DNA of 64,000 bases, taken from positions 145,273 to 209,272 of the forward strand of contig CAWDXN010000004.1 in the NCBI GenBank assembly GCA_963806355.1, given 5' to 3'. The notes beneath the pieces are model-generated. The model was not told where the DNA came from and searched no databases. It saw nothing but the letters and a program-made list of their open reading frames with translations. This stretch comes from Methanomassiliicoccaceae archaeon. Its GTDB lineage: Archaea; Thermoplasmatota; Thermoplasmata; Methanomassiliicoccales; UBA472. The position numbers were made by a program, and so were the translations under genes. Positions 3,846 to 63,339 of this stretch are shown one piece after another (position 1 is the first letter of the stretch; the number at the start of each line of letters is the position of its first letter).

Positions 3846-3846
3846 C

Positions 3847-5218: not shown

Positions 5219-5368
5219 TCAGATCAACCCTGATGCCTGTCATTTCCCTTCCATACTTATCTCTTTTGTCATAACCGACCTATCGAAGAATCTGGTCAGA
5301 ATTATAGATTCCAATAATAATCAATTCCCATGTCGTTCATCGGATTCGTCTCGACTAAATGAATAATA

Positions 5369-6742: not shown

Positions 6743-6754
6743 CCGAAAGATGTT

Positions 6755-6922: not shown

Positions 6923-7013
6923 TGTAATCGATTCTGCTTACTGGAAAATCAGTATATAATCTTTCGTCCGACTGAATCCGATCGAGGCCGGTCGGGGATG
7001 GCTCGCACAATGC

Positions 7014-7021
7014 TTATATTT
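7014..7021 (+). promoter_or_regulatory. TATA-like box (TTATATTT) upstream of lysK
   Basis: AT-rich octamer about 30 nt upstream of ATG 7050, consistent with a short-leader archaeal promoter. Confidence 0.35.
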
Positions 7022-7049
7022 AGCCGGGCATTCGGTCCGCTTGATAGCC

Positions 7050-8603
7050 ATGCAATGGGCAGACGTGATCGCTAGGGACCTCCTGAAGCGGGGAAGCAAG
7101 CACCTCATCAACACGGGCATCAGTCCCTCCGGTTTCATACACGTCGGTTCCTTGAGGGAGGCGATCACCGCCAACGCGGTCTACAAGGCAGCGGCCGACC
7201 AGGGGGCCGATGTCCGACTGATCTACCTGGTGGACGATTACGACCCTCTGCGCAAGCGCTACCCCTTCCTTCCCGAGTGCTACGACAAGGAGATCGGCAA
7301 GCCCCTTTGCCAGATACCCTGTCCAGGGGACGGATGCCACGAATCCTATGGGCATCACTTCATCCAGCCGTTCCTCGACGCCATCGCGGAGATGGGCATC
7401 CGACCCGATGTCTACTACACCCACGAGCTGTACGAGCAGGGCAAGTTCGCCGAGCTCACGGACCTGGTGATCCGGGAGAAGGAGAAGGTGGCGCCAGATC
7501 CTAAAGGAGGTCACCGGCAGGGCCGTGCCTGAAGGCTACTATCCGGTCAGCCCTCAATGCGCCAGTTGCCGCCGTTTCACCGATAAGGTAACTGGCTATG
7601 AGTACCCCTTCGTCCACTACCAGTGCGGATGCGGTCATGAGGGCAAGGCGGACATACGCATCGGGGAGGCCAAGCTGCCCTGGCGCATCGAGTGGGCCGC
7701 CAAGTGGAAGATCTTGGGGGTCACGTGCGAACCGTTCGGCAAGGACCACGCCGCCGCTGGAGGTTCCTATGAGACCGGGGAGCGCTTCGCCCGGGACCTT
7801 TTCGGCATCGAGCCTCCTTTCCCAGTACCTTACGAGTTCATCCAGTTCAAAGGCAAAGGCCAGATGCACAAGTCGACCGGAGTGGTGGTCACCGGGACCG
7901 ATGCTCTGCAGATCACCCCCGCCCCGGTGCTGAACTTCAGCGTGCTTCGTTACAACCCGGACAGGCACATCGATTACGACCCAGGACTTGGGCATACTGG
8001 ACATCGTGGACGAATATGACCGGGTGGAAGCTCTTTACTTTACTGGAGGAGCGGAGGACAAGGACAAGGACCTGCTCCGCGCCTACGAGATCGCCCAGGC
8101 CAAGTGCGTGAGGGACAAGCTGCCTTTGCAGGTGCCCTACAGACATCTGGTCTCCATGGTTCAGATCACGGAGGACTTCGATGGCGTCATGGAGATCCTG
8201 ATGAGGACCGAGGGCATCGTGGAGATAGCCCCCGCGGATCGTGGAGGTCCTATTGCAACGGGTCAATTGCGTTAAGCATTGGTTGCTGAACTTCGCCCCG
8301 GATGAGGTCAAGTTCTCCCTGGCCAAGCAGTTGCCACCGGTGAAGCTCACCGCTCAGGAGGTAGGTTTCCTGAGCGCGTTGTCGGATAGGCTGACAACGA
8401 CCGAATGGCTTGGCGACAACATCCACAACTCCGTCTACGATTGCGCCAAGGACTCCGGCATCCCCGCCAAGTCTGGTTTCCAGGTCTTGTACCAGATATT
8501 CATCGACAAGAAGCAGGGCCCTCGCCTGGGCTATTTCCTCTCCACCTTGGACAAGGCTTTCGTGCTGCAACGGATCGCCGAGGCGGTCCGCTCCAACGCC
8601 TGA
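7050..8603 (+). CDS. lysK: lysyl-tRNA synthetase, class I (three apparent frameshifts near 7495, 7985, 8245)
   Basis: Reading runs through ORFs 7041..7532, 7525..8019, 7988..8275 and 8241..8603. Contains SPSGFIHVGSLREA (HIGH-like), CPGDGCH zinc region, WRIEWAAKW, GKDHAAAGGSY and GQMHKSTG (KMSKS-like). ATG at 7050 (a TTG at 7041 is also possible). Confidence 0.85.
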
Positions 8604-8607
8604 GCCA

Positions 8608-8976
8608 TCAGCCTCTTTTCGGCCTCATGGTGAACAGCAACGCGGAGATGGCCAACCAGACCAGCACGATCACGAACAGCCAGATGCCGTTGCCTGGGTA
8701 ATAGTGGTTCACGAGCAGGACCAACCCGATCAAGGCCAACAGGCTCCCCCAGAACATGAGGAACGAGCCGCTGGCATACTTGAACCGGTCAGCCGTGGTC
8801 GAATGGTCAGATAGCCCCACCAGCATGATGTATGCGCCCACGCCCACCATCAGGATGGGCAGGAATAGGAACCAATCATCCTCGAACCAACTGGCCATGG
8901 TGGCCACGGCTACCGTTAAAAGAACCACGGCGGCCGAGACGCTGGCCAGACCGACCCTCCCCGGTCCGTTCTGCAT
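8608..8976 (-). CDS. hypothetical integral membrane protein
   Basis: Intact 122-aa ORF with four hydrophobic segments. No family recognised. Confidence 0.5.
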   Translation of the reverse strand: MQNGPGRVGLASVSAAVVLLTVAVATMASWFEDDWFLFLPILMVGVGAYIMLVGLSDHSTTADRFKYASGSFLMFWGSLLALIGLVLLVNHYYPGNGIWLFVIVLVWLAISALLFTMRPKRG

Positions 8977-9021
8977 TGGATATCACATATCGATTGGAGG
9001 CTGGGATTTTAAAACTAACCC

Positions 9022-10131
9022 TCAGCGGTGGGTCACTCCCATGTTGGTCAGCTTGTCCGGCAGGTACTTGTCCGTGACATAGTCCAGGCCGTACTTGGCC
9101 AGCGCCTGCTGTTCAGCCTTCTTGTTGAGCTTCAGCATGGTCTCGATCTCCCCGCGCCAGAAATCGTCGTTGAAACGGGGGTCCTTCAGCTCGGCGTTCA
9201 GCGCCCTGACGTCCATGTCGGTCAGCTTGTCGGTCGGAAGGTCGTAGTTCGTGATGTCCGAGGCGGTGATGCCGATGTACTCCGCGGTCGGCGTGGCCAG
9301 ATACTCGGATATGTGCGCGGTCTTGATGGCGCCGTAGGCCACGGAGGCGAAGATGCGGAAGGACCAGGGATCGCCATCGGTGAACACGATCACGGGCAGC
9401 TTCAGCTCTTCGTTGACGCCGCTTGATGAAGCGCCGGGTGCTCCGGGCCGGCTGTCCCTTGAGGTGCACCAGCACGGCATCGAAGTCCTCGTCGAACCCG
9501 TTCTCCACCAGACGGTCGAACATACCGCCGGTCTCGATGGCGATGAGGAACTTGGCATCCGTGCTCACCAGGTCGAGCTTGTCCTTCTCCACGTTGTAAG
9601 GTATGCCGTAGCCGGAGTCGCCGACGTCGTCCCGGCAGTTGATGCGTCTTCTTCTTGCCCTTGCGGTCCGTCTCCACGATGGTGATGTCGCCCATGACCC
9701 TGGCGCCATCCTCCTCGGGGCGCAGCTTGAAGTCCTCGCGCATGCAGTCGGTGACGATCTCCAGGTCCTCGGCCAGGAAGTTGCGATCTCGTCCTGGGAG
9801 TGGAACTTCGCCTTCTCCCAGCCCTCGGAGATGTAGTACATCTCCCTGAGGGTGGAGGACTTCTTCTTCTCGATCATGTCCTCGATGAGCTCCAGCACAT
9901 ACATGGTGCGCAGCAGCATCATCGCCCCGTTGGTCTTCTTGGCGGTCCTGGCTCCGGTGGCCTTGCCGTACTTCCAGACCCCGTGCTTGGGGTCGAACCG
10001 GATGTTGCTCTTGGTGCGCAGCGGAAGCACCATCTTCGGGATCTTGCCCGAGTCGATCTGGTCATAGATGGACTCGGCGATGTCGTACAGCTCCTTTATC
10101 GCCTTCCTCTGACCGTCTCCTGCTCAGTCAT
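9022..10131 (-). CDS. top6A: DNA topoisomerase VI subunit A (Spo11-like); about four apparent frameshifts
   Basis: [15 protein letters not shown]...[13 protein letters not shown], then [13 protein letters not shown] (Toprim), [16 protein letters not shown]...YGAIK and KAEQQAL. Reading switches among ORFs 9113..10033, 9402..9743 and 9022..9558. ATG 10131 overlaps the top6B stop. Confidence 0.85.
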
Positions 10132-12152
10132 CGCTCAGCGCCTCCTTCTGTTCGTCATAGTCGACCTCGTCCTCGTCCTCCTCGACCGGTTCCGCCGAGG
10201 CGGCACTCGGATATCTGCAAGGCCTTGACGTCCCAGTCGCCAGGCAACGGATCGGCCCCGATGACCAGCGCCGGGTCGATGCCGCTGACATAGATCTCGT
10301 TCTCCTCATAGGCCTCCTGGTCCAGCCCCTTCAGGTCGAACTGATATCTCCACCTTCTGCGGTGGATGGGGATGGACCTCAGCTCCCAGGTGATCTTGCC
10401 ATCGTCCTTGACCTCGGTCGGGGAACATGCTGCAGCCCAGTGTAGTCGAGCTTGTCCTGGGGCAGGACCATGTGGAGGTTGAACTTCTGCCCCTTGCGGC
10501 GTGTAGTTGTAGATGGTGACCCTGACCTTGTGGCGCTTCTTCTCGTAGGTGACGGCATCATCGATCCAGACCACGTTCATGATCTTGGTGATGCGTGCCG
10601 GAGAGGGATGGGCACCGGTTTGCCGACGATCTTGGCGCTCTTCTCCGCGATCAGCGGCAGGATGACCTGCACGATGTCGAACTTGGCCTTGGTCTTGACC
10701 TTGGTCTCCTTCTTGTTGAGATGGGTCTTGAGGCTGCGACCGCAGGTCTTGAGGGCCAGTTCGATCTCCTCCTGGATCTCCGGGATGCTGGCGATGGCCT
10801 CCTTGGCCTCGGAGGTGAACGGGACCTTGGTGGAGGCGACGTGCACCATGATGATGGCCGGTCCGAACGGGATGCCCTCGCCGCCCCTCTGCTCCAGGCC
10901 GTAGCGGCGCCAGTCGGTGCTCTCGATGGCCTTGGTGACCGCACATGCGCCTTGCTGGTAGAGCAGTGGCACGCGGTTGGCGAAACGCAGTATCTGCACC
11001 GGCTGTTCCTTGGGCAGATCGCCGCCGTAGACGATGCCCACCTCCACCAGGAAGGGGTTGCCGGCGTAGACCTTGCGGCTCGCGGGTGACCGGGGGGGCG
11101 TAGAACTCCGGTCGTATCTCGTCGAGGACGTTCTTCAGGCCCTTGCGGATCAGGTTCTCCGCCGATGGGCGACAGGCAGTCCGTCTGGGGGGCCATTATC
11201 TTCACGGAGCCGAGCGCCTCGAGCAGCCGCTTGTAATCCTCCAGCCGGAGGCCTCCCGGGTTGTCCTTCTTGTCCACAGGCGCAGGTTGGTCCTTTCCGG
11301 GTCCAGACCGGCCTTCTCGCAGATCTCCTTGGCCAGCCGGTCGCTGATGCGGCTGAAGTCGGTCTGGAGGAACTTGGACAGGGTCTTGGCCTTGGTCTCG
11401 TTGGCCATGTTCATCAAGGTGCCCAGCTCGAGGCCCTCGGGATGAGGCTTGATCTCCTTGGTCGGTGGCGGGAGGTCATCGGTGGCCCTCTCGAAGGTGA
11501 TGCTCCGCCCCTCTGGATCGACGAAGGTGAACTTGGCATGGGGGTTGACGATGGCGGTCTGTTTGAGGTACTCCAGCACCGACTGCTTGCCGGACAGGTA
11601 CCGCCCGTTCATGAAGAACTCCACCCTGGTCCCGTGCTCCTTCTCGTCCCAGATGCTCGAGGTTCCTCGCGCAGCACCTCGGGGAGGTTCTTCTTGGTGT
11701 TGATCATGATGTCCAGCTCCCAGGCGGTCTCCTCGTGGGCGGTCTTGGAGCGGACCGTGGTCGGCCTTACCGGTGGTGATCTGGCCGAACATGACCGTGG
11801 CGGAGATGCCGATGCCCTGCTGCCCCCGGGACTGTCGCACCGCGTGGAACCTTGAACCGTAGAGCAGGCGACCGAAGACGTTGGGTATCATCCTCTTGAC
11901 GATGCCCGGACCGTTGTCCTCCACCGTCACCTTGTACTCGTTCTTCTCGACCCTCTCGATGCGGACCTGGATCTCTGGCAGGATGGACGCCTCCTCGCAG
12001 GCGTCCAGGGAGTTGTCCACCGCCTCCTTGACGCCCATGATCAGCGCTTTCACCTGCGAATCGAAGCCGAGGATCTGCCGGTTCCTCTCGAAGAACTCCG
12101 AGACGGATATCTCCTTCTGCTTCTTGGCCAGCTCTTCAGCGATAGAACTCAT
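10124..12152 (-). CDS. top6B: DNA topoisomerase VI subunit B (GHKL ATPase); at least eight apparent frameshifts
   Basis: Bergerat-fold motifs [15 protein letters not shown] and RGQQGIGIS in ORF 11202..12152. Continuation is seen in ORFs 10651..11277, 10577..11047 ([20 protein letters not shown]), 10155..10946, 10379..10561 and 10124..10309 (acidic tail ...[18 protein letters not shown]). Confidence 0.85.
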
Positions 12153-53187: not shown

Positions 53188-53401
53188 ATGAACGAGAATC
53201 CTCTCTGTTGTACCTGCCTGCACCGGGAGAGACCGGCCCGAGCTCGGACTGGGCGGGAAGTTGATCTATTGCCGGAAGAAGGAGATGGTGGTCAGCCCAA
53301 AGCTGAAATGCGACATATACTCCCGCGCCACCAAACAATCCATCAAAGAGCTGGAACGCTCCCTTTACGGCGTCATCCAGGAAGGAGAGGGCGAGTACTA
53401 G
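53188..53401 (+). CDS. small Cys-rich (zinc-ribbon-like) protein, one apparent frameshift near 53230
   Basis: MNENPLCCTCLH..., then ...DRPELGLGGKLIYCRKKEMVVSPKLKCDIYSRATKQSIKELERSLYGVIQEGEGEY with TAG 53399-53401. Confidence 0.35.
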
Positions 53402-54084
53402 TGCCATTCTAGCAACGGGTGGGCATGCCCGTTGCCGTTCGCCCTGATCTCGAAGGGGACCCATTGGTTGGCCAAGGGCACACCCCTCATATGCCGCACC
53501 CTCATCATGCGGTTCAGCTCATCATCGAAGCGCAGCTCGATGACCCCATCCGCGATCGCCATCAGGTGATTGACGGTCTTATCATCGTGCACACCGTCAT
53601 GGATGGAGAAGATGGCTGTGCCGAACTCGTTCCTCACCCTTGAAGCGGATATCTGGAAGAACTTCAATACCACATTGGCCTGGTTGTACAGGAACAAAGT
53701 GGACAGGGTATAGAAGAAGATGCGCACCGGCTTGCCCTGCTCGTGCGCTATGCTGGAAACATTGAACATTATACCCTCGATGTCGCCGGCGGACCGGACC
53801 TCTTGGCGCGGATAGGACTTCTTCTCCTCCAAGGAACCGAGCAGACTGGTATGGTAATCGATGATGAACAGGTTCTTGCCCAGCGACTCGTCGAGCTTGA
53901 TGTCGAAACCCTTCATGAGGTCTATCAGGTCCCCGGGCAACATGTCCATGGTGACGAAGATCACCGTCTCTCCCGCATCGAGATAGTCCTTTGCCAGACT
54001 GACCTCGAACTCCAACATGCCGATGCCTGGGCTGCCGATCATGAGCACGGAACAGAGGTCCGGTAACGAGGCCTTGAGCAACAT
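53398..54084 (-). CDS. KaiC/RecA-superfamily ATPase-like protein with degenerate Walker A
   Basis: Intact 228 aa. The P-loop position reads GSPGIGMLEF (no GK[ST]). Overall single KaiC-like domain pattern (...LFIIDYHT..., ...VIELRFDD...MRVRHMRG). Confidence 0.65.
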   Translation of the reverse strand: MLLKASLPDLCSVLMIGSPGIGMLEFEVSLAKDYLDAGETVIFVTMDMLPGDLIDLMKGFDIKLDESLGKNLFIIDYHTSLLGSLEEKKSYPRQEVRSAGDIEGIMFNVSSIAHEQGKPVRIFFYTLSTLFLYNQANVVLKFFQISASRVRNEFGTAIFSIHDGVHDDKTVNHLMAIADGVIELRFDDELNRMMRVRHMRGVPLANQWVPFEIRANGNGHAHPLLEWH

Positions 54085-54088
54085 GGCA

Positions 54089-55576
54089 TCACACTATGGG
54101 GGTGAGCGAGAGCTTACCGCCTTGGCCGCGCTCCTCTATCGCCAACGCGTTGCATTCAGTGAATGGTTCCTCACCATACAGGACGACCGTGCCCCCCAGC
54201 CGCTCCACTTTCACATGGAGGTTGGCCAGATCGTTCAACTTGCGGACCGAATGGGAGGAGGGCGAGGTGATGGCCACGCACACCCCTTTCTGCCGCTTCA
54301 TCATCCCGACATGATCGGTGAGTTGGTCCATGACGTTCGGACCATAGGTGGATTCCAGGGTGTCGAAGCCCAGTAAGGATAGGAATGGAGCCTCGGTCCC
54401 GCTCAGGCTGTAGGAAATGTTCTTCCATTTGAGGTCCGCCCCTGCGTCGGTTCCCTCGACAGCCATTATGTACGGGGCCGAGACCTCTACTTGAGAGGCG
54501 ATCTCGGGTATGCGCACGAAGCGCTCGAACTGGTCCTTGGTCAGGGAGGACGACATCTGGGCGCGCATCGCCTCAGCGCCGGCCTTGCGCAAGGGCACCC
54601 ACACCACTCCACGCCCCAGAGCCACGAAGTTGGCCACCAGCGACTGTTCCAGCATGCCACCTACTGAAGAGGGCACGCTTTGGCCCAGCTCCACCAGGAC
54701 GGTGCTGCCCCGAGGCAGGCCGCCTGCGATGACGCGGTCCAGGTCCGTGATGCCGGAGGAGACCCTGCCGTCATTGTCCGGGACCGCTCTCCAGCCGTTC
54801 ATGGCCGGGGCATGCTGGTCCGCGCCGTAGGCGAAGGTCTGTATCCTTCCTCCTTTCAAAGTGAACAGGTATTTCGGCTGGGCGATCTCGCAACCCCTCA
54901 TCTTGAGGAGGTCGATCTCCCTGACACGGCGACGGTTGAACTCGCCGCGAGAGACTATGACCACGCCATCGCCCAGGTAATCTAGGCCCTGGTCGCTGTT
55001 CTCCAGCACATAGAGCAAATTAGCGCCCTTGCCTTCCACAAGGTCCTTCTGCAGGGCGGAGATGAGATTGGCATAGGTGAGCCCGTAACGGTCCGCCAGG
55101 GCATCGATGCTATCGATGACCACCAATAATCGACCTTCGCTGCCTTCCACCAACTTGTAGAGGTCCTCCAGATCCCCCAGGTCCTTGCCGATGGAGATGG
55201 TCATGACCTTCTTCTGGGGGTTCGATGGTTGGGCCCCAAGTCCCTTCAGCCTCGAAAGCCCGGACCGGTTCCCGTTGTTCCCGCTCTTGATCGCTCCCCC
55301 CACTAGCTTCTGCTCCAGCCAGGGGAAGTGGTTCAACAGGGCATGGTCGGAGACGCGAGTGGAGAAGTAGTAGCCCCGTTCCGTCGCTGCCAGGTCCTCG
55401 ATGACCTGCAGGGCGAAGGTGGTCTTTCCCGCCCCAGCGTTGCCCCTGATGATAAGCGAATGACCGCCTGGTGCCGTGAAGAAATGGTGCACCTCAGCAG
55501 GTATTCTCAATTTAGGTGCGGGGTCCATTTGATTACCTTCTCCCAATGATTCCTCACCCCCTTCTCTATTCAACAA
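54089..55576 (-). CDS. two-domain KaiC/RecA-superfamily ATPase (domain 1 with intact Walker A, domain 2 degenerate)
   Basis: Intact 495 aa (likely start MDPAPK at 55528). Domain 1 has GNAGAGKTTFALQ and VVIDSIDAL. Domain 2 has GGLPRGSTVLVELGQSVPSSVGG, lacking GK[ST]. Confidence 0.75.
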   Translation of the reverse strand: MLNREGGEESLGEGNQMDPAPKLRIPAEVHHFFTAPGGHSLIIRGNAGAGKTTFALQVIEDLAATERGYYFSTRVSDHALLNHFPWLEQKLVGGAIKSGNNGNRSGLSRLKGLGAQPSNPQKKVMTISIGKDLGDLEDLYKLVEGSEGRLLVVIDSIDALADRYGLTYANLISALQKDLVEGKGANLLYVLENSDQGLDYLGDGVVIVSRGEFNRRRVREIDLLKMRGCEIAQPKYLFTLKGGRIQTFAYGADQHAPAMNGWRAVPDNDGRVSSGITDLDRVIAGGLPRGSTVLVELGQSVPSSVGGMLEQSLVANFVALGRGVVWVPLRKAGAEAMRAQMSSSLTKDQFERFVRIPEIASQVEVSAPYIMAVEGTDAGADLKWKNISYSLSGTEAPFLSLLGFDTLESTYGPNVMDQLTDHVGMMKRQKGVCVAITSPSSHSVRKLNDLANLHVKVERLGGTVVLYGEEPFTECNALAIEERGQGGKLSLTPIV

Positions 55577-56876: not shown

Positions 56877-58669
56877 ATGTGCGGCATCATCGGATATACC
56901 GGACAGAGGGAGGCCTCCGAGGTCATCCTGGACGCCCTGAGACGCCTGGAGTACCGCGGTTACGATTCCGCCGGCATCGCCATCATGAACCCTGAGCTCA
57001 CGCTGCATAAGAACAAGGGCGAGATCACCGAGATGCAGAGGACCCTGCCCCAGATAAACGGGCACGTGGGCATCGGGCACACCCGCTGGGCCACCTGCGG
57101 CAAGCCATCCAATGAGAACGCCCACCCGTTCCTGGATTGTCACGGACGCATCGCCCTGGTGCACAACGGCATCATCGAGAACTACATGGCCTTGAAGAAG
57201 CAGCTGCAGAACGAAGGTCACGTCTTCACCTCGCAGACCGACACCGAGGTCATCGTCCATCTGATCGAGAAGCATGACAAGGGCGATCTGCACCAGGCGG
57301 TGCGAGCGACCGTGGCGGAGATAAAAGGCACCTACGCCATCGCTGCATCGAGACAGGCTCTGAGCAAATCGTCGCCGCCAGGAAGGAGAACCCACTGGTG
57401 CTCGGCCTGGGCGTCGAGGAGAACTTCGTCGCCTCTGACGTCACCGCCATCCTGAGCTACACGAACAAGGTCAAGTACGTCATGGACGGGGAGACGGTGG
57501 TGATAACCCCTGAGAGAGTCACCATCTATGACCCGGACGGGGAGATGGTGGAGCGTACATCCCAGACGGTGACATGGAACGCGGAGGACGCCCAGAAGGG
57601 CGGTTTCGAGCATTTCATGCTCAAGGAGATATTCGAGGAGCCCCAGGCCATCCACAATTCCCTGCTGGGCGCCCTGGACGTCATCGAGAACGGCGAGATC
57701 CTGCCGAACGTCCAGTTCAATTCCATCAAGATCATCGCTTGCGGTACCTCCTACCATGCCGCCATGGTGGGCAAGTACGTCCTGGAGGAGTTGGCCAAGA
57801 TCCCGATCACGGTGGAGCTGGCCTCCGAGTACCGTTATTCGCCCGGGGCCAAGGAATTCCCCTTGGTGGTGCTGATATCCCAGAGCGGGGAGACCGCCGA
57901 CACGCTGGCCGCCGCCCGGGAGGCGAAGCGCCGGGGTTGCAAGACCTTGGGGATCACCAACGTGATCGGTACCACCATCACCCGCGAGGTGGACGAGGTG
58001 TTCTACACCCGGGCCGGACCGGAGATCGGCGTGGCCGCCACCAAGACCTACCTCACCCAGCTCATCGCGCTCTACATCATCGCCATCCGCATCGGATATG
58101 CGAGGCGCAACCTCAGCCACGACGCCATGTGGAACGAGCTCTCCAAGCTGCGGGCCATGCCCGGTGCGGTGCAAAGCGTGCTGGACAAGGCCTCCGAGGT
58201 AGAGGCGGCGGTGGACCTGTTGGTCCCCGCCCGGGACGTCTTCTTCATCGGGCGGAACATCAACTACCCGACCATGCTCGAGGGCGCCTTGAAGTTGAAG
58301 GAGATATCCTACATCCATGCCGAGGGCTTCGCCGCGGGCGAGCTGAAGCACGGCCCCCTCGCGCTTCTGGACAGCACCACGCCGGTGGTGGCCGTCGCCT
58401 TGACCAAGGATCACACCTACGACAAGATGATGGCCAACATATCCGAGGTGGCGGCCCGGGACAGCCCGGTGCTCGCCATCGGCTGCGAGGATGACAAGGA
58501 GCTGCCCCAGGTGGCCGATCTGGTCCTGAGGGTTCCATGCGTCGACCCGCTGTACTCGCCGGTGCTGGTGACGGTGGTGCTGCAGCTCATCGCGTACTAC
58601 GCCGCCCTGAAAAGAGGTTGCTCCATCGACAAGCCCAAGAACCTGGCCAAGAGCGTCACGGTGGAGTGA
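56877..58669 (+). CDS. glmS: glutamine--fructose-6-phosphate aminotransferase (one apparent frameshift near 57345)
   Basis: MCGIIGY (Ntn Cys), GHTRWAT, two SIS domains (ACGTSYHA, SQSGETADT) and C-terminal KPKNLAKSVTVE. Confidence 0.9.
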
Positions 58670-59653
58670 TCAGGCCAGGCGTTCTGGGCAGATGTCCCGG
58701 CGCGAGCAGGAGTGGCACTTGCCCGGCCGATTGTGGTTGCGATGGGCCTCGCCCTCCTCCAGCGTGCGGTGCATCTCCTCGACCTTCGTCAAAACGATCT
58801 GACGCAGGTTCTCGTCGAACTCCACATCGAACTCCGCCTCGGAATATTTCAACACACCGCGGTTGACCTTCTTGCCGGTGTGGTCCTCCAACAGCAGGCA
58901 ATAGGCCGCCACCTGCACGATGTGCGAGAAAAGCGGTCCCTTGGGGGTGCGCCCGCTCTTCATCTCCACGGGGACCAGCTCCCCGCCCTCTTGCAGCACG
59001 TAGTCCGGCTTCCCGCTCAGGCCGTAACGCTCGGAACGGTAGATCGGCGCCTCGTCGTTGCCAACATAGAGAACGTTGCCCTTGAGATGCATCTCCTGAC
59101 GTTTGATCTCCGCCCTGCGTTGCGCCGACAGAGACCAGTATAGGACGATCCCTGTGCCTATCAGCCAGATCAGGGCGAGAATGAGCATTATGTTGGAAAT
59201 TTGGGTCGGGACGTCCAAGACGATGATGAGGTTGAGGACGACGAAAAGGAGCACCACGCCCGCCACCGCCGCCGCCCGTTCCTTGCGAAGTTCCTTGGCA
59301 TGCTCCCCCCTTCCTGAGCGGTAGACGAGATAGAGGATGAGCGATATCCAGAGCACGGAGGGGATGGCGCTCAACCAGATGGACTCCTGAGCCAGGGTCT
59401 GGTTGACGATCAGTATGGCCACCAATGCCAGCATCGTGGCCACCAATGAGAACCAAAGCACCGCCCTCTCCCAGGACATCACCCTCTTCTCAGAATCTAT
59501 CACCTGTTGCAGATCGTTGGACAGGTCTCCATGTCGTCGCTCCCCCTCCTCCAATCGCTCCGATGTGGTGTCCTGGCTCCGGCTCAGCCACCAGCTCAAT
59601 GGGCAATAGCTGAAACGCTCCAGCTCGCTGGCCGAGAGGATCTCGGAAGCCAT
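58670..59653 (-). CDS. Cas4-family PD-(D/E)xK Fe-S nuclease-like protein with four inserted transmembrane helices
   Basis: Intact 327 aa. N-terminal Cys in FSYCPLSWW. Four hydrophobic ~20-aa segments (AVLWFSLVATMLALVAILIV, IWLSAIPSVLWISLILYLVY, AAVAGVVLLFVVLNLIIVL, IMLILALIWLIGTGIVLYW). Nuclease core GKPDYV...VPVEMKSG, QVAAYCLLLE and C-terminal CHSCSRRDIC. Confidence 0.7.
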   Translation of the reverse strand: MASEILSASELERFSYCPLSWWLSRSQDTTSERLEEGERRHGDLSNDLQQVIDSEKRVMSWERAVLWFSLVATMLALVAILIVNQTLAQESIWLSAIPSVLWISLILYLVYRSGRGEHAKELRKERAAAVAGVVLLFVVLNLIIVLDVPTQISNIMLILALIWLIGTGIVLYWSLSAQRRAEIKRQEMHLKGNVLYVGNDEAPIYRSERYGLSGKPDYVLQEGGELVPVEMKSGRTPKGPLFSHIVQVAAYCLLLEDHTGKKVNRGVLKYSEAEFDVEFDENLRQIVLTKVEEMHRTLEEGEAHRNHNRPGKCHSCSRRDICPERLA

Positions 59654-59704
59654 GCCCTAGGAATGCCCTGACCCTTATAATACGGTTCTCGGCCGGTTAT
59701 CAGC

Positions 59705-60475
59705 TCACTGCATGTAGTCGCAGCAGTGCTCCACCAGCGCCGAGTCCATGATGAAGATGCCCTCGGGGATCTCCACCTCTTCCAGGTAACCGAACCAATA
59801 GACGACCAGACCTTGGCCGAAGAGCTCCAGGTACGGGGCCAATTGCTTCTTGAGGTTCTTGTTGACCTCCACCTTGTCCCCGAAGGTGGCCTTGGACTCG
59901 ATCCAGTTCACTTCCCAGCCGTTGACGGTGACGGGCTTGTCGAAGAGGCAGTCCGGGGTCTTCTGGAACTCGCCACGGAGGTCCTTCTCTGTCCTGAAGG
60001 TGATGTTGTTCTCTGCTAGCCAGCCCTGCAGCTTGGCCTCGCCCCATATGCCCCTCTTGCACTGCACCTCGTTGGCCCAGGGCGAGTAGACGTAGTCGGC
60101 AGCGGTGATCTCCTCGATCTCCTTTCGCATCCTCCGGTCAGGGATGATCTCCGGATTGCGGACGAAGCTCCAGAACTGCTTGCGGGATTTCCCCATCTCC
60201 TTGAAGATGAGAAGTGCAGTGAGTATGGGGGAGAATTCCGCCTTCTCCGAGATCTGTAAAAGGGACTTGCCCTTCTCCCAATCCCGGACCATCTCCTTTC
60301 CGTAGCGTTGCACTCTGTAGAACGCCCGAGTGGTCTCTCTCACGGTCCTCTGGGTATAGATGACCGTGACAAGTTCCTCATCGAGACCAAGTTCCTGGGA
60401 AAGGATTTTGATGTCCGAGGGTCGGTTCAGACTATCGTAAATTTTTTTGAACTCATGATACTGCATTAAATTCAC
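59705..60475 (-). CDS. TPD-domain (C15orf41/CDIN1-like) PD-(D/E)xK nuclease-family protein
   Basis: Intact 256 aa. Helical, HTH-like N-terminal half. C-terminal EFQKTPDCLFDKPVTVNGWEVNWIESKATFGD carries the TPD motif and an E-x-K element. 51 nt upstream of the Cas4-like gene on the same strand. Confidence 0.6.
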   Translation of the reverse strand: MNLMQYHEFKKIYDSLNRPSDIKILSQELGLDEELVTVIYTQRTVRETTRAFYRVQRYGKEMVRDWEKGKSLLQISEKAEFSPILTALLIFKEMGKSRKQFWSFVRNPEIIPDRRMRKEIEEITAADYVYSPWANEVQCKRGIWGEAKLQGWLAENNITFRTEKDLRGEFQKTPDCLFDKPVTVNGWEVNWIESKATFGDKVEVNKNLKKQLAPYLELFGQGLVVYWFGYLEEVEIPEGIFIMDSALVEHCCDYMQ

Positions 60476-60758
60476 TCTATCGGATAGTTACAATCGCCAT
60501 GTAGAGAGAGGGCCACTATTTGAAAATATCGCCGGTTCTAAGCTATAGAACGAAGTGCTGGACATTTTTTGGTAGTAAGAACTTTATTATTATTTATTTT
60601 CAAATTAAATATTTGTTTCGACCTGTTCTCCATGTCCGATGAATTCCCATTCTGGTTCAACATCGTCGAACCTTGATGGAGATGGGGTCGGAGGCGTTCG
60701 TCTGTCCCACATAATCCTTCTTAGACGAGCTCGGAGGGTCGGACCCTATGGTTCACTC

Positions 60759-62408
60759 TCAGGTCACCGATTCCTTGAGCCATTGATCGATCACCTTCTG
60801 AACGGACATGCCAGGGTTCAGCTCCCCGATCTTAGCCTCCAGCCCCGCCTGGCGTATGGAGTCCCGGCAGGACCCGGAGGCGTCGGACAATCTTAGCGTG
60901 GCCCCCAGGTCCTTCAATTCCATGTACAAGGTCTCGATGGTTTGTGTCGCGGAGAGGTCTAGATAGGGAGAGCTGCGTAGGCTGAGCACCACCAGCTTGA
61001 TGTTGCTCGATCGCCTGACCTGGGTAAGGACCTCCTGCCTCACCTTGGAGACGTTGGGGAACATCAATGGACCGTCCACCCGGAAGACCATCACACCGGT
61101 GATGGTCTCATTCTCGGGATTGCGGTCAAGGTCGGTGAACTCTTGGGTCCCCGGTATGCGACCAAGCTGCCTTATGCCAGGCTGGGAGATGCGGTAGAGC
61201 AGGTCGAGCATGGTCAGCGCCACACCGATGAAGATCCCCTCCAACAGTCCGAAGATCAGGACGCCCAGGATCGCCGCCACCGCGAAACCGAACTCCTTCT
61301 TGTCGAAGGCATAGACCCCCTGCAAGGACTTGATGTCGATGAGGGTGATCATGGCGGCGATGATGATCACCCCGATGACGACCCGAGGAAGGTTACTGAA
61401 GAAGGATGTGAAGAATAGCAGGACCAGTATGAGGACGATCGCCGCCACCGCACTGGAGAGTTGGCTCTTGGAGTTGTTCTCGTAGTTGATGGCCGTGTTC
61501 GAAGCGCTGCCGTTCAAGGGCATGCCTTGGAAGAAGCTCGCCGTCAAGTTGGCAGCGCCATATGCCGTGAACTCCTGGTTGTTATCGATCTCATACCCTC
61601 CCTTCTTGGCAAAGGTCTTGCTCACGGATATGCCTTCGATGTAGGTGATGAGGAATAGGCCCACAGCGATGGTCAAGAGAGCTGTTAACGACTGCCCGCC
61701 GGTATTCGGGACGACGAAATCGGGCAAGCCCTCGGGGATGGAGCCCACCACTTCTATCCCCCAATCCACGACGGGCAGGACCGTGGCCAGCGCCGTGGCC
61801 ACGATGATGAGCACGAAATTCCAAGGGATCCTTCTGTAATATCTTTTTCCGATAAAGATCAGGGCGAAGGCCATCAGGGCGATGGAGATGGTGGTGAGAC
61901 TGGCCTGGTCGATGTTTTTTATATAGAAAATGGCCACCTCGAAGAAATTTCCACTTGCCCCGCTTATGCCCAGGACCCTCCCCATCTGGAGATTGATAAC
62001 ATAAAGGGCCAACCCTATCTGGAAACCGATCAGCACGGTCTGGGAGATGAAATTGACGATGAATCCCAGCTTGACCACTCTGGCCATGAGGAGCATGAGA
62101 CCCGTGATGAAGGCGAGCATGGCCACGGCCGCTATGTACTGACTCTCGTCAGCGAAGACCAGACCCACCAGGCCGGCCCCTACCAGCGCCGCCGGTCCGG
62201 ACGATGGCACCACGATCAGATGCTTGGACGAGCCGAAGATGAAATAGGCGATCAGGGAGGCTACCGCGGCGTAAAGCCCATATTGGGTGGGCAGGCCGGC
62301 CAAGGTGGCCCAGCCCATGGCGGAGGGGATGACGACCGCCCCCACGGTCAGACCGGCCACAAAATCGATCCTCAGGTCCTTCCTTTCATATTTTGGGAGC
62401 CAATCCAA
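60759..62408 (-). CDS. SulP-family anion (sulfate) permease with C-terminal STAS domain
   Basis: Intact 549 aa. DFVAGLTVGAVVIPSAMGWA, YGLYAA, many TM segments, and a STAS-like end (VMVFRVDGPLMFPN...LVVLSL...LSDASG). Confidence 0.88.
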   Translation of the reverse strand: MDWLPKYERKDLRIDFVAGLTVGAVVIPSAMGWATLAGLPTQYGLYAAVASLIAYFIFGSSKHLIVVPSSGPAALVGAGLVGLVFADESQYIAAVAMLAFITGLMLLMARVVKLGFIVNFISQTVLIGFQIGLALYVINLQMGRVLGISGASGNFFEVAIFYIKNIDQASLTTISIALMAFALIFIGKRYYRRIPWNFVLIIVATALATVLPVVDWGIEVVGSIPEGLPDFVVPNTGGQSLTALLTIAVGLFLITYIEGISVSKTFAKKGGYEIDNNQEFTAYGAANLTASFFQGMPLNGSASNTAINYENNSKSQLSSAVAAIVLILVLLFFTSFFSNLPRVVIGVIIIAAMITLIDIKSLQGVYAFDKKEFGFAVAAILGVLIFGLLEGIFIGVALTMLDLLYRISQPGIRQLGRIPGTQEFTDLDRNPENETITGVMVFRVDGPLMFPNVSKVRQEVLTQVRRSSNIKLVVLSLRSSPYLDLSATQTIETLYMELKDLGATLRLSDASGSCRDSIRQAGLEAKIGELNPGMSVQKVIDQWLKESVT

Positions 62409-62724: not shown

Positions 62725-63339
62725 ATGGACGCTTTAAACAATATACCATTCATGCCTAACTCGAGGGGGCCGCCATGGCTCCCAGCGCCCGCCGCACAGG
62801 GAAGACAGCTCGCCTACTACGGCGTCCTGTTCGCCTTCATCATGTTTGTGGTCGGCATCATTTGGTTGATAATCGCAATGTTGTCCTGGTCGGTCTATCT
62901 GTACGGGTTCGTGCTGTGGATCATCATCGACATAATATTCTTCTTCCTGATCAAGTCCACAGTGTTCGACCAGATCGATCAAGGAAGGTTCCATGATGCC
63001 AATGTCATGTTCCTGCTCTGGAGCATCCTGATGTTGTTCGTCGGTCTGATCCCAGGCATCTTGATGATAATCGGTTGGATAAAGTTCCAGGAGGTCTTCC
63101 AGCCCCAGTATGCCCAGTACCAGGCCCAACCGGGTCAGGTCGGACCCCCACCGGCGCAGCAGCCGTCCCAGTACGCGCCCCCGCCACCGGCCCCGCCCCA
63201 ACAGGCCCCCCCACCCCCGCCCGCAGCTGAGCCCCAGCCGGCCCAGCAGCAGAAGGTGGACATGGTGAAGTGCAAGAAGTGCGGCGTTAACTACCCGGCC
63301 TTCATGCACCACTGCCCCAACTGCAACGAGCCGCGGTGA
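62725..63339 (+). CDS. membrane protein with Pro/Gln-rich linker and C-terminal zinc ribbon
   Basis: Intact 204 aa. Three or four TM segments, then QPQYAQYQAQPGQVGPPPAQQPSQYAPPPPAPPQQAPPPPP, then CKKCG...CPNCN. Confidence 0.6.
   Translation: MDALNNIPFMPNSRGPPWLPAPAAQGRQLAYYGVLFAFIMFVVGIIWLIIAMLSWSVYLYGFVLWIIIDIIFFFLIKSTVFDQIDQGRFHDANVMFLLWSILMLFVGLIPGILMIIGWIKFQEVFQPQYAQYQAQPGQVGPPPAQQPSQYAPPPPAPPQQAPPPPPAAEPQPAQQQKVDMVKCKKCGVNYPAFMHHCPNCNEPR

What the first reader, a model, noticed from the sequence alone, without database searches (positions are those of the whole stretch)
58670..60475. Two-gene unit of PD-(D/E)xK nucleases: a TPD/CDIN1-like protein followed by a membrane-embedded Cas4-like Fe-S nuclease
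Both genes lie on the minus strand, 51 nt apart, and both are intact in a window where many genes are broken.

- The upstream 256-aa protein carries the K-T-P-D ... I-E-S-K arrangement typical of the TPD family. Its eukaryotic member, C15orf41/CDIN1, is a predicted nuclease.
- The downstream 327-aa protein has every Cas4 hallmark: an N-terminal Cys (FSYCP), D...E-x-K (GKPDYV, VPVEMK), Q-x-x-x-Y (QVAAYC) and C-x2-C-x5-C (CHSCSRRDIC).
- About 110 residues forming four strongly hydrophobic helices are inserted between the first Cys and the nuclease core.

Canonical Cas4 and AddB-type nucleases are soluble, so an integral-membrane Fe-S nuclease paired with a second nuclease is not a described system as far as I know. 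No cas1/cas2 genes or CRISPR array occur anywhere in the window. The unit could act on DNA at the membrane (entry, uptake or defence), but that is inference only.
Basis: partly seen in the sequence, partly recalled or inferred. Interest (0 to 1): 0.7.

Follow-up and report, generated by a model that had tools for sequence, protein, structure and literature searches.

The report
Membrane-embedded Cas4 nuclease beside CDIN1 homolog
A Cas4-type DNA-cutting enzyme, normally soluble, is here built into the cell membrane by two inserted helical hairpins; the design is conserved across a large archaeal group, occurs split into two genes elsewhere, and has no description in the literature I could search, while its neighbour, an archaeal relative of the human anaemia gene CDIN1, sits beside it through inherited gene order rather than any demonstrable partnership.

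Summary
Two intact minus-strand genes lie 51 nt apart: a TPD/CDIN1-family protein (PF14811, 154.9 bits) and a 327-aa Cas4-family protein (TIGR00372, 100.5 bits against a cutoff of 65). About 120 residues forming four transmembrane helices interrupt the Cas4 domain. The insert splits both the Fe-S ligand set (Cys17 vs Cys313/316/322) and the active site (His41 vs Asp217/Glu230/Lys232).

New findings:
- The insert is a tandemly repeated two-helix hairpin.
- Relatives carry 1, 2 or 4 hairpins (2, 4 or 8 TM helices, essentially always even).
- Loop charges place both halves in the cytoplasm.
- Some apparently bacterial relatives are split into two adjacent genes at the hairpin loop. This shows independently that the two halves work together.
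- At least 351 Thermoplasmatota species genomes encode a relative, always in housekeeping contexts without cas genes.

The "two-gene nuclease unit" is only weakly supported. The adjacency (68 of 80 loci) tracks a larger syntenic block that includes convergent glmS. Cas4-TM has its own TATA-like promoter. Each gene occurs without the other (53 TPD-alone loci, plus natural single-gene deletions). Human CDIN1 is now reported to be an RNA nuclease, not a DNA nuclease.

Verdict: a real, apparently undescribed architectural variant of solo Cas4. Its biological role is unknown.

The parts
58670..59653 (-). Cas4-TM gene (327 aa): a solo Cas4-family PD-(D/E)xK / Fe-S nuclease with an intradomain four-helix membrane insert
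   Evidence: ORF. TIGR00372 100.5 bits, PF01930, PF12705. PADLOC Cas4 models. Foldseek top hits are Cas4 structures 8d3q, 8d3l, 7mi4, 4ic1. dN/dS 0.026-0.063.
59480..59653 (-). N-terminal Cas4 segment (residues 1-58), carrying the first cluster cysteine (Cys17 in SASELERFSYCPLSWW) and the metal-binding His41
   Evidence: Cys17 and His41 are invariant in 72 homologs. They align with the first Cys and the His of solved type I-C Cas4 once the insert is removed. pLDDT is 92 for residues 11-20. The same segment is encoded as a separate small gene in split relatives.
59300..59479 (-). Membrane hairpin A (residues 59-118: TM1 about 62-84, short outside loop, TM2 about 91-112)
   Evidence: Hydropathy. 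AF2 helices. Hairpin profile hpA. Loop 1 has a mean of 0.3 K+R.
59120..59299 (-). Membrane hairpin B (residues 119-178: K/R-rich cytoplasmic loop, TM3 about 127-146, short outside loop, TM4 about 150-175); homologous to hairpin A
   Evidence: Profiles hpA and hpB cross-match hairpin units in relatives. Loop 2 has a mean of 4.1 K+R, loop 3 has 0.1, and the post-TM4 flank has 5.4.
58670..59119 (-). Cas4 nuclease core (residues 179-327 plus stop): Asp217, Glu230-x-Lys232, Gln247-xxx-Tyr251, Cys313-x2-Cys316-x5-Cys322
   Evidence: Residue conservation. Profile matches cover residues 160-323. Structural matches to Cas4, Dna2, MGME1 and Exo5.
59675..59682 (-). TATA-like element TATTATAA, centred about 25 nt upstream of the Cas4-TM ATG, inside the 51-nt gap; probable own promoter with a short or absent leader
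   Evidence: Sequence. AT content peaks at 0.78 at -30..-26 against about 0.45 background across 77 loci. 62 of 77 loci have an octamer with at least 7 of 8 A/T centred at -40..-15, including loci without TPD.
59705..60466 (-). TPD / CDIN1 (C15orf41)-family gene (253 aa from the ATG; the longest ORF reaches a GTG at 60475): N-terminal all-helical domain plus C-terminal PD-(D/E)xK domain
   Evidence: PF14811 154.9 bits. Tetrad E143, D172, E190, K192 invariant in 41 homologs. AF2 pLDDT 95.8. dN/dS 0.044-0.054.

Best explanation
SHOWN OR STRONGLY SUPPORTED.

The downstream gene encodes a solo (not CRISPR-linked) Cas4-family nuclease. Its single catalytic domain is interrupted, between the helix that carries the metal-binding His41 and the first beta-strand, by two tandem copies of a homologous two-helix membrane hairpin.

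The number of helices is even and the loop charges follow the positive-inside rule. So the N-terminal segment (Cys17, His41) and the C-terminal core (Asp217, Glu230, Lys232, Gln247, Tyr251, Cys313/316/322) both lie in the cytoplasm. There they reassemble into one Cas4 fold, held directly under the membrane by two long helices that continue into TM1 and out of TM4.

INFERRED.
- The four cysteines bind one [4Fe-4S] cluster that clamps the two halves together.
- The enzyme is a metal-dependent nuclease on DNA ends or ssDNA, like other Cas4, AddB and Dna2-type enzymes.
- Membrane tethering restricts it to nucleic acid at the inner face of the membrane and keeps it off the nucleoid.

My preferred biological role is processing or destroying linear DNA as it enters the cell (virus, plasmid or environmental DNA). 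I give this role about 0.35.

The upstream TPD gene is an independently functioning archaeal orthologue of CDIN1. By analogy with the human enzyme it more likely cuts RNA, or the RNA strand of RNA:DNA hybrids, than DNA. It lies next to Cas4-TM because of lineage-specific conserved gene order. It may be partly co-transcribed, but it is not an obligate partner.
For: Family and residues.

Split domain:
- The Cas4 profile matches only residues 160-323 in the native protein.
- With residues 60-176 removed, the protein aligns from profile position 2 of the Cas4g and TM0106 models.
- The same construct aligns end to end with solved 8d3l_I (query 6-210 to chain 9-202), with the Cys, the His and CxxCx5C in register.

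Membrane insert:
- Hydropathy and an AF2 model with pLDDT 80.7, pTM 0.70 and four long helices.
- The insert is a hairpin repeat.
- Among complete representatives the TM count is 2 (n=14), 4 (n=28) or 8 (n=13). The only two odd counts are borderline calls.
- Loops 1 and 3 carry 0.1-0.3 K+R on average; loop 2 and the post-TM4 flank carry 4.1 and 5.4.
- One relative has two C-terminal TRAM nucleic-acid-binding domains. This fits a cytoplasmic C-terminus that acts on nucleic acid.

Natural split:
- About 50 of the best 150 representatives are roughly 160-200 aa 'TM plus core' proteins without the N-terminal segment.
- In 3 of 4 independent loci an 80-97 aa gene abuts them upstream and encodes 'ASEL..Y.FC..W[WYR]L...H' plus one TM helix.
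- A profile of query residues 1-60 finds only those ORFs among 344 six-frame ORFs (E = 1.4e-8, 2.6e-6, 1.5e-4).

Vertical, housekeeping character:
- 351 species genomes encode a relative.
- Neighbours are glmS, a GlmU-like transferase, IF-2B family, AcnX, SMC, thiamine and POR genes. No cas genes and no CRISPR array.
- No relatives in IMG/VR viral contigs.
- dN/dS 0.03-0.06.

Independence of TPD:
- Own promoter for Cas4-TM.
- TPD-alone loci.
- Natural deletions L166 and L072.
- The 2-TM and 8-TM variants and the large Thermoplasmata clade lack TPD nearby.
- CDIN1 is an RNA nuclease (PMC13463051).

Precedent that membrane anchoring can spare self DNA: SNIPE (PMC13190303).
Against: - No biochemistry. 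Fe-S binding, nuclease activity, substrate and topology are all predictions.
- No dedicated TM predictor (DeepTMHMM or TMHMM) was available. Topology rests on hydropathy, the positive-inside rule, parity and the AF2 helices.
- The role in handling incoming DNA is conjecture. The gene behaves like a vertically inherited core gene rather than a patchy defence gene, and there are no uptake or defence genes nearby.
- No oligo-T terminator separates TPD from Cas4-TM, and the pair stays contiguous over deep divergence (Cas4-TM identity down to about 37%). Co-transcription and some functional link are therefore not excluded.
- In M. mazei Solo-Cas4 the cluster cysteines are dispensable for cleavage (PMC12501428). 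The cluster here may be structural only.
Confidence: 0.6

Rival explanations
1. One reading: TPD and Cas4-TM form a dedicated two-gene system. They are co-transcribed and act together on the same nucleic-acid substrate at the membrane. For example, TPD removes RNA from RNA:DNA hybrids and Cas4-TM resects the DNA.
For: - Same strand, contiguous, never interrupted in 68 of 80 Cas4-centred loci, across Cas4-TM identities from 99% down to about 37%, and in 11 TPD-centred loci.
- No oligo-T terminator in the 51-nt gap.
- Both genes are under strong purifying selection.
- The substrate preference reported for CDIN1, RNA:DNA hybrids, could complement a DNA-end nuclease.
Against: - The convergent Cas4-TM/glmS junction cannot be an operon, yet it is conserved in every paired locus with downstream room and breaks together with the TPD junction. 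Adjacency therefore does not discriminate here.
- An internal TATA-like promoter is conserved before Cas4-TM.
- 53 of 64 informative TPD-centred loci lack Cas4-TM within 6 kb.
- Either gene can be cleanly lost from the same frame: L166 and L072.
- The 2-TM, 8-TM, split and large Thermoplasmata clades have no TPD nearby.
- No TPD-Cas4 fusion protein appears among the top hits.
Confidence: 0.2
2. Cas4-TM is a housekeeping enzyme of chromosome biology at the membrane rather than a handler of incoming DNA. It might trim DNA ends during segregation or division, repair membrane-attached DNA, or load DNA into vesicles.
For: - Vertically inherited, with a syntenic single locus per contig in at least 351 species genomes.
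- Housekeeping neighbours, once next to SMC.
- No viral relatives.
- Very low dN/dS.
- The closest structural relatives include the repair and replication nucleases Dna2, MGME1, Exo5 and AdnAB.
Against: - No conserved linkage to any repair, replication or division gene.
- The gene is dispensable in at least one lineage (L166).
- It was not seen beside TPD in the host-associated clade.
- Split relatives are patchy, and one sits among mobile-element-like genes: ParA-like, SNase, DUF5131 and a ResIII helicase.
Confidence: 0.25
3. It is an ordinary CRISPR adaptation Cas4, as public annotation says, working in trans with cas1-cas2 encoded elsewhere in the genome.
For: - It scores above the curated cutoff of the NCBIfam 'cas4' equivalog and matches PADLOC Cas4 models.
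- Databases name its relatives 'CRISPR-associated protein Cas4'.
Against: - No CRISPR repeats in 64 kb.
- No cas gene in any neighbourhood inspected.
- The locus is fixed next to glmS across the order.
- A 120-residue membrane insert is unknown in adaptation Cas4.
- The nearest relatives by HMMER are other membrane-anchored forms, not soluble cas-operon Cas4.
Confidence: 0.05
4. The hydrophobic insert is not membrane-spanning; for example it could be a buried helical bundle or an oligomerisation domain. The protein would then be soluble.
For: - No dedicated TM predictor could be run.
- pLDDT is lower (54-67) across TM2-TM3.
Against: - Four segments of about 20-25 residues with Kyte-Doolittle peaks of 2.1-3.0.
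- Strict even parity (2, 4 or 8) in relatives and textbook positive-inside charge asymmetry.
- Single-pass 'signal-anchor plus core' relatives and split genes that each carry one helix.
Confidence: 0.03

Closest known systems
CRISPR-associated Cas4 (TIGR00372 / PF01930; solved examples SSO0001 4IC1, Pcal_0546 4R5Q, type I-C 8D3L, type I-G Cas4-Cas1 7MI4)
   Same: - Same fold and motifs: N-terminal Cys, metal-binding His, D...ExK, QxxxY and C-terminal CxxCx5C.
- Scores above the curated cutoffs.
- These are the best structural matches.
- Aligns end to end with 8D3L once the insert is removed.
   Different: - About 120 residues (four TM helices) are inserted inside the domain.
- No cas1, cas2 or CRISPR context.
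- Vertically inherited at a fixed housekeeping locus.
Solo-Cas4 proteins, e.g. Methanosarcina mazei Solo-Cas4 (PMC12501428) and the solo-cas4 groups of Hudaiberdiev et al. 2017 (PMC5704561)
   Same: - A Cas4-family gene outside any cas operon in an archaeon.
- Four cluster cysteines.
- The M. mazei enzyme binds a [4Fe-4S] cluster, is a Mn/Mg-dependent DNA nuclease and forms a large oligomer.
   Different: - Those proteins are soluble.
- The 2017 phylogenomic survey does not mention transmembrane forms, Thermoplasmata or TPD neighbours.
SNIPE, a membrane-bound anti-phage nuclease of E. coli (PMC13190303)
   Same: - Cytoplasm-facing nuclease anchored in the inner membrane.
- Anchoring keeps it off the chromosome, so location provides self/non-self discrimination.
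- This is the best mechanistic analogy for what membrane tethering could achieve.
   Different: - GIY-YIG fold with a DUF4041 domain.
- Single N-terminal TM helix, not an intradomain insert.
- No Fe-S cluster.
- Bacterial, patchy defence gene.
- Neither Pfam nor the PADLOC defence library gave a GIY-YIG, DUF4041 or other SNIPE-type match to Cas4-TM.
Fe-S / RecB-like end-processing nucleases: AddB/AdnAB, Dna2, Exo5, MGME1
   Same: - Related PD-(D/E)xK nuclease domains that thread DNA ends. In AddB, Dna2 and Exo5 an Fe-S cluster staples the N- and C-terminal parts of the domain (established knowledge).
- These are significant Foldseek hits.
   Different: - All are soluble, and most are fused to helicase domains or act in repair or replication complexes.
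- No such partners occur here.
CDIN1 / C15orf41 (Pfam TPD, PF14811), for the upstream gene
   Same: - Full-length family match.
- Same catalytic tetrad with nearly identical spacing: E143/D172/E190/K192 here vs E166/D196/E214/K216 in human.
- Helical N-terminal domain plus PD-(D/E)xK C-terminal domain.
- Archaeal orthologues in Euryarchaeota were already noted by Swickley et al. 2020.
   Different: - There is no Codanin-1 partner; Swickley et al. 2020 describe Codanin-1 as younger than C15orf41, and only C15orf41 has archaeal orthologues.
- Activity is untested. The human enzyme is an RNA nuclease with no DNA cleavage.
- There is no solved structure to compare with.
Membrane nucleases of bacterial DNA uptake (ComEC nuclease domain, EndA, NucA); from my own knowledge, not tested here
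   Same: - A nuclease physically coupled to the membrane that processes DNA crossing it.
   Different: - Unrelated folds, and EndA and NucA face outward.
- No competence genes lie near Cas4-TM.
- One split relative lies in a cluster that begins with SSB. This is only a hint.

Membership tests
Cas4 family (PF01930 / TIGR00372) | Profile HMM score above the curated cutoff | tested here: met
   TIGR00372 100.5 bits vs 65; PF01930 45.8 vs 22.7; PF12705 58.5 vs 22.
Cas4 family (PF01930 / TIGR00372) | RecB-type active site: His, Asp, (D/E)xK, QxxxY | tested here: met
   His41, Asp217, Lys232 and Tyr251 are invariant and Gln247 is at least 90% conserved in 72 homologs. Glu230 is Glu or Asp in all 15 sequences of A1. 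The His and the core motifs are in register with 8d3l_I.
Cas4 family (PF01930 / TIGR00372) | Four cysteines, C...CxxCx5C, arranged to bind one Fe-S cluster | tested here: met
   Cys17, Cys313, Cys316 and Cys322 are invariant. Cys17 aligns with the first cluster Cys of solved Cas4. Actual cluster binding was not testable.
Cas4 family (PF01930 / TIGR00372) | Fe-S cluster actually bound; metal-dependent DNA nuclease activity | not testable with these tools
   Needs purified protein (UV-vis at 420 nm, EPR, nuclease assays).
Cas4 family (PF01930 / TIGR00372) | Compact soluble single domain (about 170-220 aa) | tested here: not met
   A 120-residue, four-TM-helix insert lies between His41 and the first beta-strand.
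CRISPR adaptation module (functional Cas4) | Encoded with cas1/cas2 and/or next to a CRISPR array | tested here: not met
   No repeats in 64 kb. No cas genes in any neighbourhood inspected. The rest of the genome was not available.
TPD / CDIN1 (PF14811) | Profile HMM score above the curated cutoff | tested here: met
   154.9 bits vs 27, covering profile positions 2-137 of 138.
TPD / CDIN1 (PF14811) | Catalytic tetrad E...D...ExK with CDIN1-like spacing | tested here: met
   E143, D172, E190 and K192 are invariant in 41 homologs. Spacing is 29/18/2 against human 30/18/2.
TPD / CDIN1 (PF14811) | Two-domain build: helical N-domain plus PD-(D/E)xK C-domain | tested here: met
   AF2 pLDDT 95.8, with helices 3-152 followed by a mixed beta-sheet. 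PDB neighbours are only weak PD-(D/E)xK matches.
TPD / CDIN1 (PF14811) | RNA nuclease activity; complex with Codanin-1 | not testable with these tools
   The activity is known only for the human protein. I did not search for a Codanin-1 homolog.
SNIPE-type membrane-bound defence nuclease | GIY-YIG nuclease plus DUF4041 domain | tested here: not met
   Pfam and PADLOC scans give only Cas4 / PD-(D/E)xK matches (PADLOC adds weak DruK-type PD-(D/E)xK hits).
SNIPE-type membrane-bound defence nuclease | Membrane anchor with the nuclease in the cytoplasm | tested here: met
   Prediction only: even TM number and the positive-inside rule, plus a C-terminal TRAM fusion in a relative.
Dedicated two-gene operon/system (TPD + Cas4-TM) | Adjacency maintained beyond background synteny and in both directions | tested here: not met
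   The junction with convergent glmS is equally conserved. There are 53 TPD-alone loci. Single-gene losses occur in L166 and L072.
Dedicated two-gene operon/system (TPD + Cas4-TM) | Single transcription unit | tested here: inconclusive
   A conserved internal TATA-like element lies before Cas4-TM. There is no obvious terminator after TPD. Transcript data are needed.

The most novel reading that the evidence does not exclude
Membrane-integrated Cas4 proteins form a previously unrecognised, widespread class of membrane-coupled nucleic-acid processing machines. Like soluble Cas4 and Solo-Cas4 they would oligomerise, here into a ring whose hairpins form or flank a conduit in the membrane. They would cut DNA as it crosses the membrane (viral entry, uptake or export). 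In Methanomassiliicoccales they would cooperate with the CDIN1 orthologue, which would give the first prokaryotic handle on the cellular function of a human disease nuclease.
Probability: 0.1. Interest if true: 0.85.

Novelty: new variant of a known kind. Interest (0 to 1): 0.62.

Why it matters
Cas4, AddB and Dna2-type Fe-S nucleases are textbook soluble enzymes. Here the catalytic domain and its cluster ligands are split by 2, 4 or 8 membrane helices, and in some organisms the protein is split into two genes at the hairpin loop.

Three consequences follow:
- The fold tolerates, and evolution repeatedly maintains, a membrane module inside the domain. This implies a conserved need to hold this nuclease at the inner face of the membrane.
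- The family is large. At least 351 Thermoplasmatota species genomes encode a relative, and hundreds of metagenomic clusters exist. Public databases annotate it as 'CRISPR-associated protein Cas4', which is functionally misleading.
- The natural split genes offer a ready-made experimental system for testing Fe-S-mediated reassembly across a membrane anchor.

The neighbouring CDIN1 orthologue is of independent interest, because the human enzyme's cellular substrate is still unknown. This work shows, however, that its link to Cas4-TM should not be taken for granted.

Tried and rejected
1. Cys-Cys distances in the AF2 model. Coordinates are not exposed. I relied instead on alignment to solved Cas4, residue invariance and the natural split genes.

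2. Neighbour-joining tree of Cas4 cores, to test whether TM forms are monophyletic against soluble forms. It was uninformative, because nearly all of the best 150 representatives turned out to be TM-bearing. My first, lenient TM caller also mislabelled sequences. This failure is what exposed the single-TM 'core-only' proteins.

3. Cross-matching contig lengths between the L065-type Cas4-TM hits and the TPD hit list, to show that both genes sit apart on one contig. No matches, so co-occurrence within a genome remains untested.

4. Sequence and profile searches of TPD against PDB chains, and Foldseek of its model. No solved relative exists; there are only weak PD-(D/E)xK neighbours.

5. Viral contigs: no relatives.

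6. Rfam and tRNA scans of 56-64 kb: nothing.

7. Literature: seven searches and five targeted reads found no description of a membrane-inserted Cas4. The JCVI-syn3.0 'Cas4-like' protein (PMC13621843) is a different family: DUF2779, soluble and fused to a DEDD nuclease. The '{1}' flag in the Cas4 row of the 2012 PD-(D/E)XK survey is a count of sequences per taxon, not a TM flag.

8. Weak Pfam/NCBIfam hits of the insert to membrane families (SUR7, DUF1129, YfhO, EPS sugar transferases). I rejected these as compositional similarity between TM regions.

Full report
1. THE OBSERVATION

All quoted motifs are present.

Profile searches confirm both families above curated cutoffs:
- Upstream protein: PF14811 (TPD) at 154.9 bits.
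- Downstream protein: TIGR00372 cas4 at 100.5 bits (cutoff 65), PF01930 at 45.8 bits and PF12705 at 58.5 bits, plus many PADLOC Cas4 models.

Both genes are under strong purifying selection against the closest relatives. dN/dS is 0.026 and 0.063 for Cas4-TM, and 0.054 and 0.044 for TPD.

The organism is a Methanomassiliicoccaceae archaeon. The closest public locus is L001 (JACXTP010000182.1), with 95% DNA identity over 5.2 kb.

The TPD start is probably the ATG at 60466 (253 aa), as in most homologs.

2. THE CAS4 DOMAIN IS SPLIT BY A MEMBRANE INSERT

In the native protein the Cas4 profile matches only residues 160-323. Four segments (about 62-84, 91-112, 127-146 and 150-175) have Kyte-Doolittle peaks of 2.1-3.0.

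An AlphaFold2 model built from 72 homologs has pLDDT 80.7 and pTM 0.70. It shows four long helices at those positions. The first (32-84) runs continuously from the soluble N-terminal part into TM1. The last (150-187) runs from TM4 into the beta-sheet core. The N-terminal Cys block is confidently placed, with pLDDT 92.

Foldseek finds CRISPR Cas4 (8d3q, 8d3l, 7mi4), SSO0001, Dna2, MGME1, ACE1, Exo5 and AdnAB, which are all soluble.

When residues 60-176 are removed in silico, two things happen. The protein aligns from position 2 of the Cas4g and TM0106 models. It also aligns end to end with solved type I-C Cas4 8d3l_I. In that alignment Cys17 pairs with the first cluster Cys, His41 with the metal-binding His, and CxxCx5C with its counterpart.

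So the insert separates both the Fe-S ligand set (Cys17 from Cys313/316/322) and the active site (His41 from Asp217/Glu230/Lys232). Cys17, His41, Asp217, Lys232, Tyr251 and Cys313/316/322 are invariant in 72 homologs at 43-87% identity; Glu230 is Glu or Asp in every sequence and Gln247 is at least 90% conserved.

3. THE INSERT IS A REPEATED HAIRPIN, AND THE FAMILY IS LARGE

A whole-library HMMER search found 1331 representatives with E below 1e-3. Relatives share the same N-terminal 'SASDxExxxYCPLSWW' block and the same C-terminal core. Between them lie 2 TM helices (about 265-285 aa), 4 TM helices (about 325 aa) or 8 TM helices (about 500-600 aa).

Profiles of hairpin A and hairpin B of the query cross-match each other's positions in relatives. 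They detect four units in the 8-TM proteins. The insert is therefore 1, 2 or 4 copies of one homologous two-helix unit.

Among 59 complete representatives the TM count is 2 (n=14), 4 (n=28) or 8 (n=13). The only two odd counts are borderline calls.

Loops 1 and 3 carry 0.3 and 0.1 K+R on average. Loop 2 and the post-TM4 flank carry 4.1 and 5.4. This gives N-in/C-in topology, with both Cas4 halves in the cytoplasm, where Fe-S assembly occurs.

One relative carries two C-terminal TRAM nucleic-acid-binding domains. That fits a cytoplasmic C-terminus acting on nucleic acid.

4. NATURAL GENE FISSION CONFIRMS THAT THE TWO HALVES BELONG TOGETHER

About 50 of the best 150 representatives are proteins of roughly 160-200 aa that I first took for soluble Cas4. 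Each one starts with a single TM helix that aligns with TM4 of the query, continues into the core with CxxCx5C, and lacks the N-terminal Cys/His segment.

In three of four independent loci an 80-97 aa gene abuts or overlaps the core gene upstream on the same strand. These loci are L086 (same as L087), L088 (same as L089) and L091; L090 lacks the gene. The small gene encodes 'ASELGQYSFCAKAWWL...H', 'ASEIAEYEFCPTAWYL...H' or 'ASEVGDYLFCALAWRL...H', followed by one TM helix.

A profile of query residues 1-60 finds only these ORFs among 344 six-frame ORFs from those loci (E = 1.4e-8, 2.6e-6 and 1.5e-4; all others above 1).

These are two-gene versions of the 2-TM form, cut in the external loop of the hairpin. 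Their neighbours are of bacterial type: SSB, a sigma-54 activator, FecR and BlaR/BlaI. That these loci are bacterial is an inference from those neighbours.

5. CONTEXT AND THE 'TWO-GENE UNIT'

Cas4-centred survey. In GTDB species representatives, 351 loci encode a relative, and I examined the best 80.
- In 68 loci TPD lies immediately upstream on the same strand.
- Every one of those with downstream room also has convergent glmS (gap about 0-20 nt) followed by a GlmU-like nucleotidyltransferase.
- Ten loci lack both TPD and glmS: nine with at least 2.2 kb of upstream sequence, plus L079, which has only 336 nt of upstream room.
- L072 keeps glmS but has no TPD.
- L053 has no upstream room.

The convergent junction cannot be an operon, yet it is as conserved as the TPD junction. 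Adjacency therefore reflects block synteny. The loci without TPD sit among IF-2B family, AcnX, SMC, Rce1-like and TPR genes. The 8-TM and 2-TM variants sit among thiamine and POR genes. A large Thermoplasmata clade of 330-340 aa proteins shares the non-TPD context.

TPD-centred survey. I seeded this metagenome scan with a Ca. Methanoplasma TPD.
- 53 loci have TPD with no Cas4-TM within 6 kb. These come from gut, rumen, termite and fermentation samples.
- 11 loci have the pair. Ten of these also show glmS; the eleventh (L165) is a 2.1-kb contig that ends too soon.
- 16 loci are too short to judge.

Locus L166 keeps orf204-like, TPD, glmS and the GlmU-like gene in order, but Cas4-TM is cleanly missing.

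Promoter. The 51-nt gap contains TATTATAA (59675..59682), centred about 25 nt upstream of the Cas4-TM ATG. Across 77 loci the AT content peaks at 0.78 at -30..-26 against about 0.45 background. A TATA-like octamer is present in 62 of 77 loci, with or without TPD upstream. Cas4-TM therefore very probably has its own promoter and a short or absent leader. No oligo-T terminator follows TPD, so read-through is not excluded.

The window neighbours are housekeeping genes: a CCG-domain protein, two KaiC/GvpD-like ATPases, a GlmU-like transferase, GlmS and SulP. There are no CRISPR repeats, no RNA genes and no viral relatives.

6. THE TPD PROTEIN

It is a full-length CDIN1/C15orf41 family member. The tetrad E143/D172/E190/K192 is invariant in 41 archaeal homologs. 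Its spacing (29/18/2) almost matches the human catalytic residues E166/D196/E214/K216.

The AF2 model is very confident (pLDDT 95.8). It shows a helical N-domain followed by an alpha/beta nuclease domain. No solved relative exists.

Archaeal orthologues were already noted by Swickley et al. 2020 (PMC7092493). Human CDIN1 showed no activity on DNA. [quoted passage not shown] 'Second DNA nuclease' is therefore not the best current reading of this gene.

7. HOW IT MOST LIKELY WORKS

Shown or strongly supported: this is a Cas4 fold reassembled in the cytoplasm from two segments that are joined through membrane hairpins.

Inferred:
- A [4Fe-4S] cluster clamps the N-terminal helix to the C-terminal Cys triad, as in Cas4, AddB and Dna2.
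- The enzyme is a metal-dependent nuclease on DNA ends.
- Tethering limits it to nucleic acid at the membrane and protects the chromosome. SNIPE demonstrated this principle experimentally for an unrelated bacterial nuclease (PMC13190303).

I favour action on DNA entering the cell (about 0.35). A housekeeping role at the membrane gets about 0.25. The vertical, core-gene-like inheritance argues for the housekeeping role. The patchy and sometimes mobile-element-like contexts of the split relatives argue for the DNA-entry role.

8. COMPARISON AND NOVELTY

By sequence, motifs and fold it is a Cas4-family member. It fails two features of canonical Cas4: a compact soluble domain, and cas/CRISPR linkage. 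It is therefore best filed as a solo Cas4 with a new intradomain membrane module.

The following sources do not describe such a form: the Cas4 phylogenomics paper, the PD-(D/E)XK survey, the archaeal 'dark matter' survey, the M. mazei Solo-Cas4 study, and four keyword searches. Absence from the open-access library is not proof of absence elsewhere.

Public annotation as 'CRISPR-associated protein Cas4' is functionally misleading.

Rating: new variant of a known kind; interest 0.62.

Noticed in passing
window 56877..58669 (+), break near 57344: glmS is split into 192-aa and 423-aa ORFs by a 1-nt deletion relative to the intact 599-aa gene of the closest relative L001. This is either a sequencing or assembly indel or a recent pseudogene.
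   Followed up: partly
window 62725..63339 (+): orf204 is a membrane protein with a Pro/Gln-rich linker and a C-terminal zinc ribbon (CKKCG...CPNC), with no Pfam match. A homolog lies upstream of TPD on the opposite strand in most of the 80 loci, so it belongs to the same syntenic block. In this lineage a SulP/STAS permease (60759..62408) is inserted between it and TPD.
   Followed up: partly
L086 1561..3860 and L087 3131..5534: The split Cas4-TM pair ends a co-directional cluster: SSB, DUF3467, a 215-aa unknown, then the 80-aa N-fragment and the 177-aa core. The cluster recurs on two contigs from different samples. It may be an operon linking membrane Cas4 to ssDNA handling.
   Followed up: partly
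L088 / L089 (around 3813..10519): Another split Cas4-TM pair sits among mobile-element-like genes: a ParA/MipZ-like ATPase, an SNase-domain nuclease, DUF5131 (phage Gp37/Gp68-like) and a ResIII/ERCC3 helicase.
   Followed up: no
L166 6001..8708: Natural deletion: the frame orf204-like / TPD / glmS / GlmU-like gene is preserved, but Cas4-TM is absent, and the TPD stop overlaps the glmS stop by 4 nt.
   Followed up: yes
L083 5001..7432: In a Ca. Methanoplasma contig, TPD stands without Cas4-TM, and an RNase HII gene lies two genes downstream. This is suggestive given CDIN1's activity on RNA:DNA hybrids, but it may be coincidence.
   Followed up: no
protein P0315 (635 aa): A Cas4-TM relative carries two C-terminal TRAM domains (PF01938, 57.2 bits). 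P0322 has a soluble segment of about 110 residues inserted between TM helices, and P0306 and P0312 have N-terminal extensions.
   Followed up: partly
window 53398..55576 (-): Two tandem KaiC/RadA-like P-loop ATPase genes lie here. The larger one has GvpD-like P-loop and basic-region matches. They are unrelated to the finding.
   Followed up: no
window 60476..60758: The 283-nt gap upstream of TPD holds a very AT-rich stretch (AAATATTTAATTTGAAAATAAATAATAATAAAG, about 60577..60610) and a TATA-like ATATTTTCAAATA about 55 nt before the ATG. No Rfam family matches here.
   Followed up: partly
Cas4-TM residues 141, 61/62, 102, 163 (window about 59165..59472): Within the otherwise variable TM helices a few polar or aromatic positions are (nearly) invariant: Asn141 in TM3, Trp61-Glu62 before TM1, Trp102 and Trp163. 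The even helices carry an 'ALxWLxGA' motif in every hairpin unit of relatives. This suggests specific helix packing or oligomerisation rather than a mere anchor.
   Followed up: no
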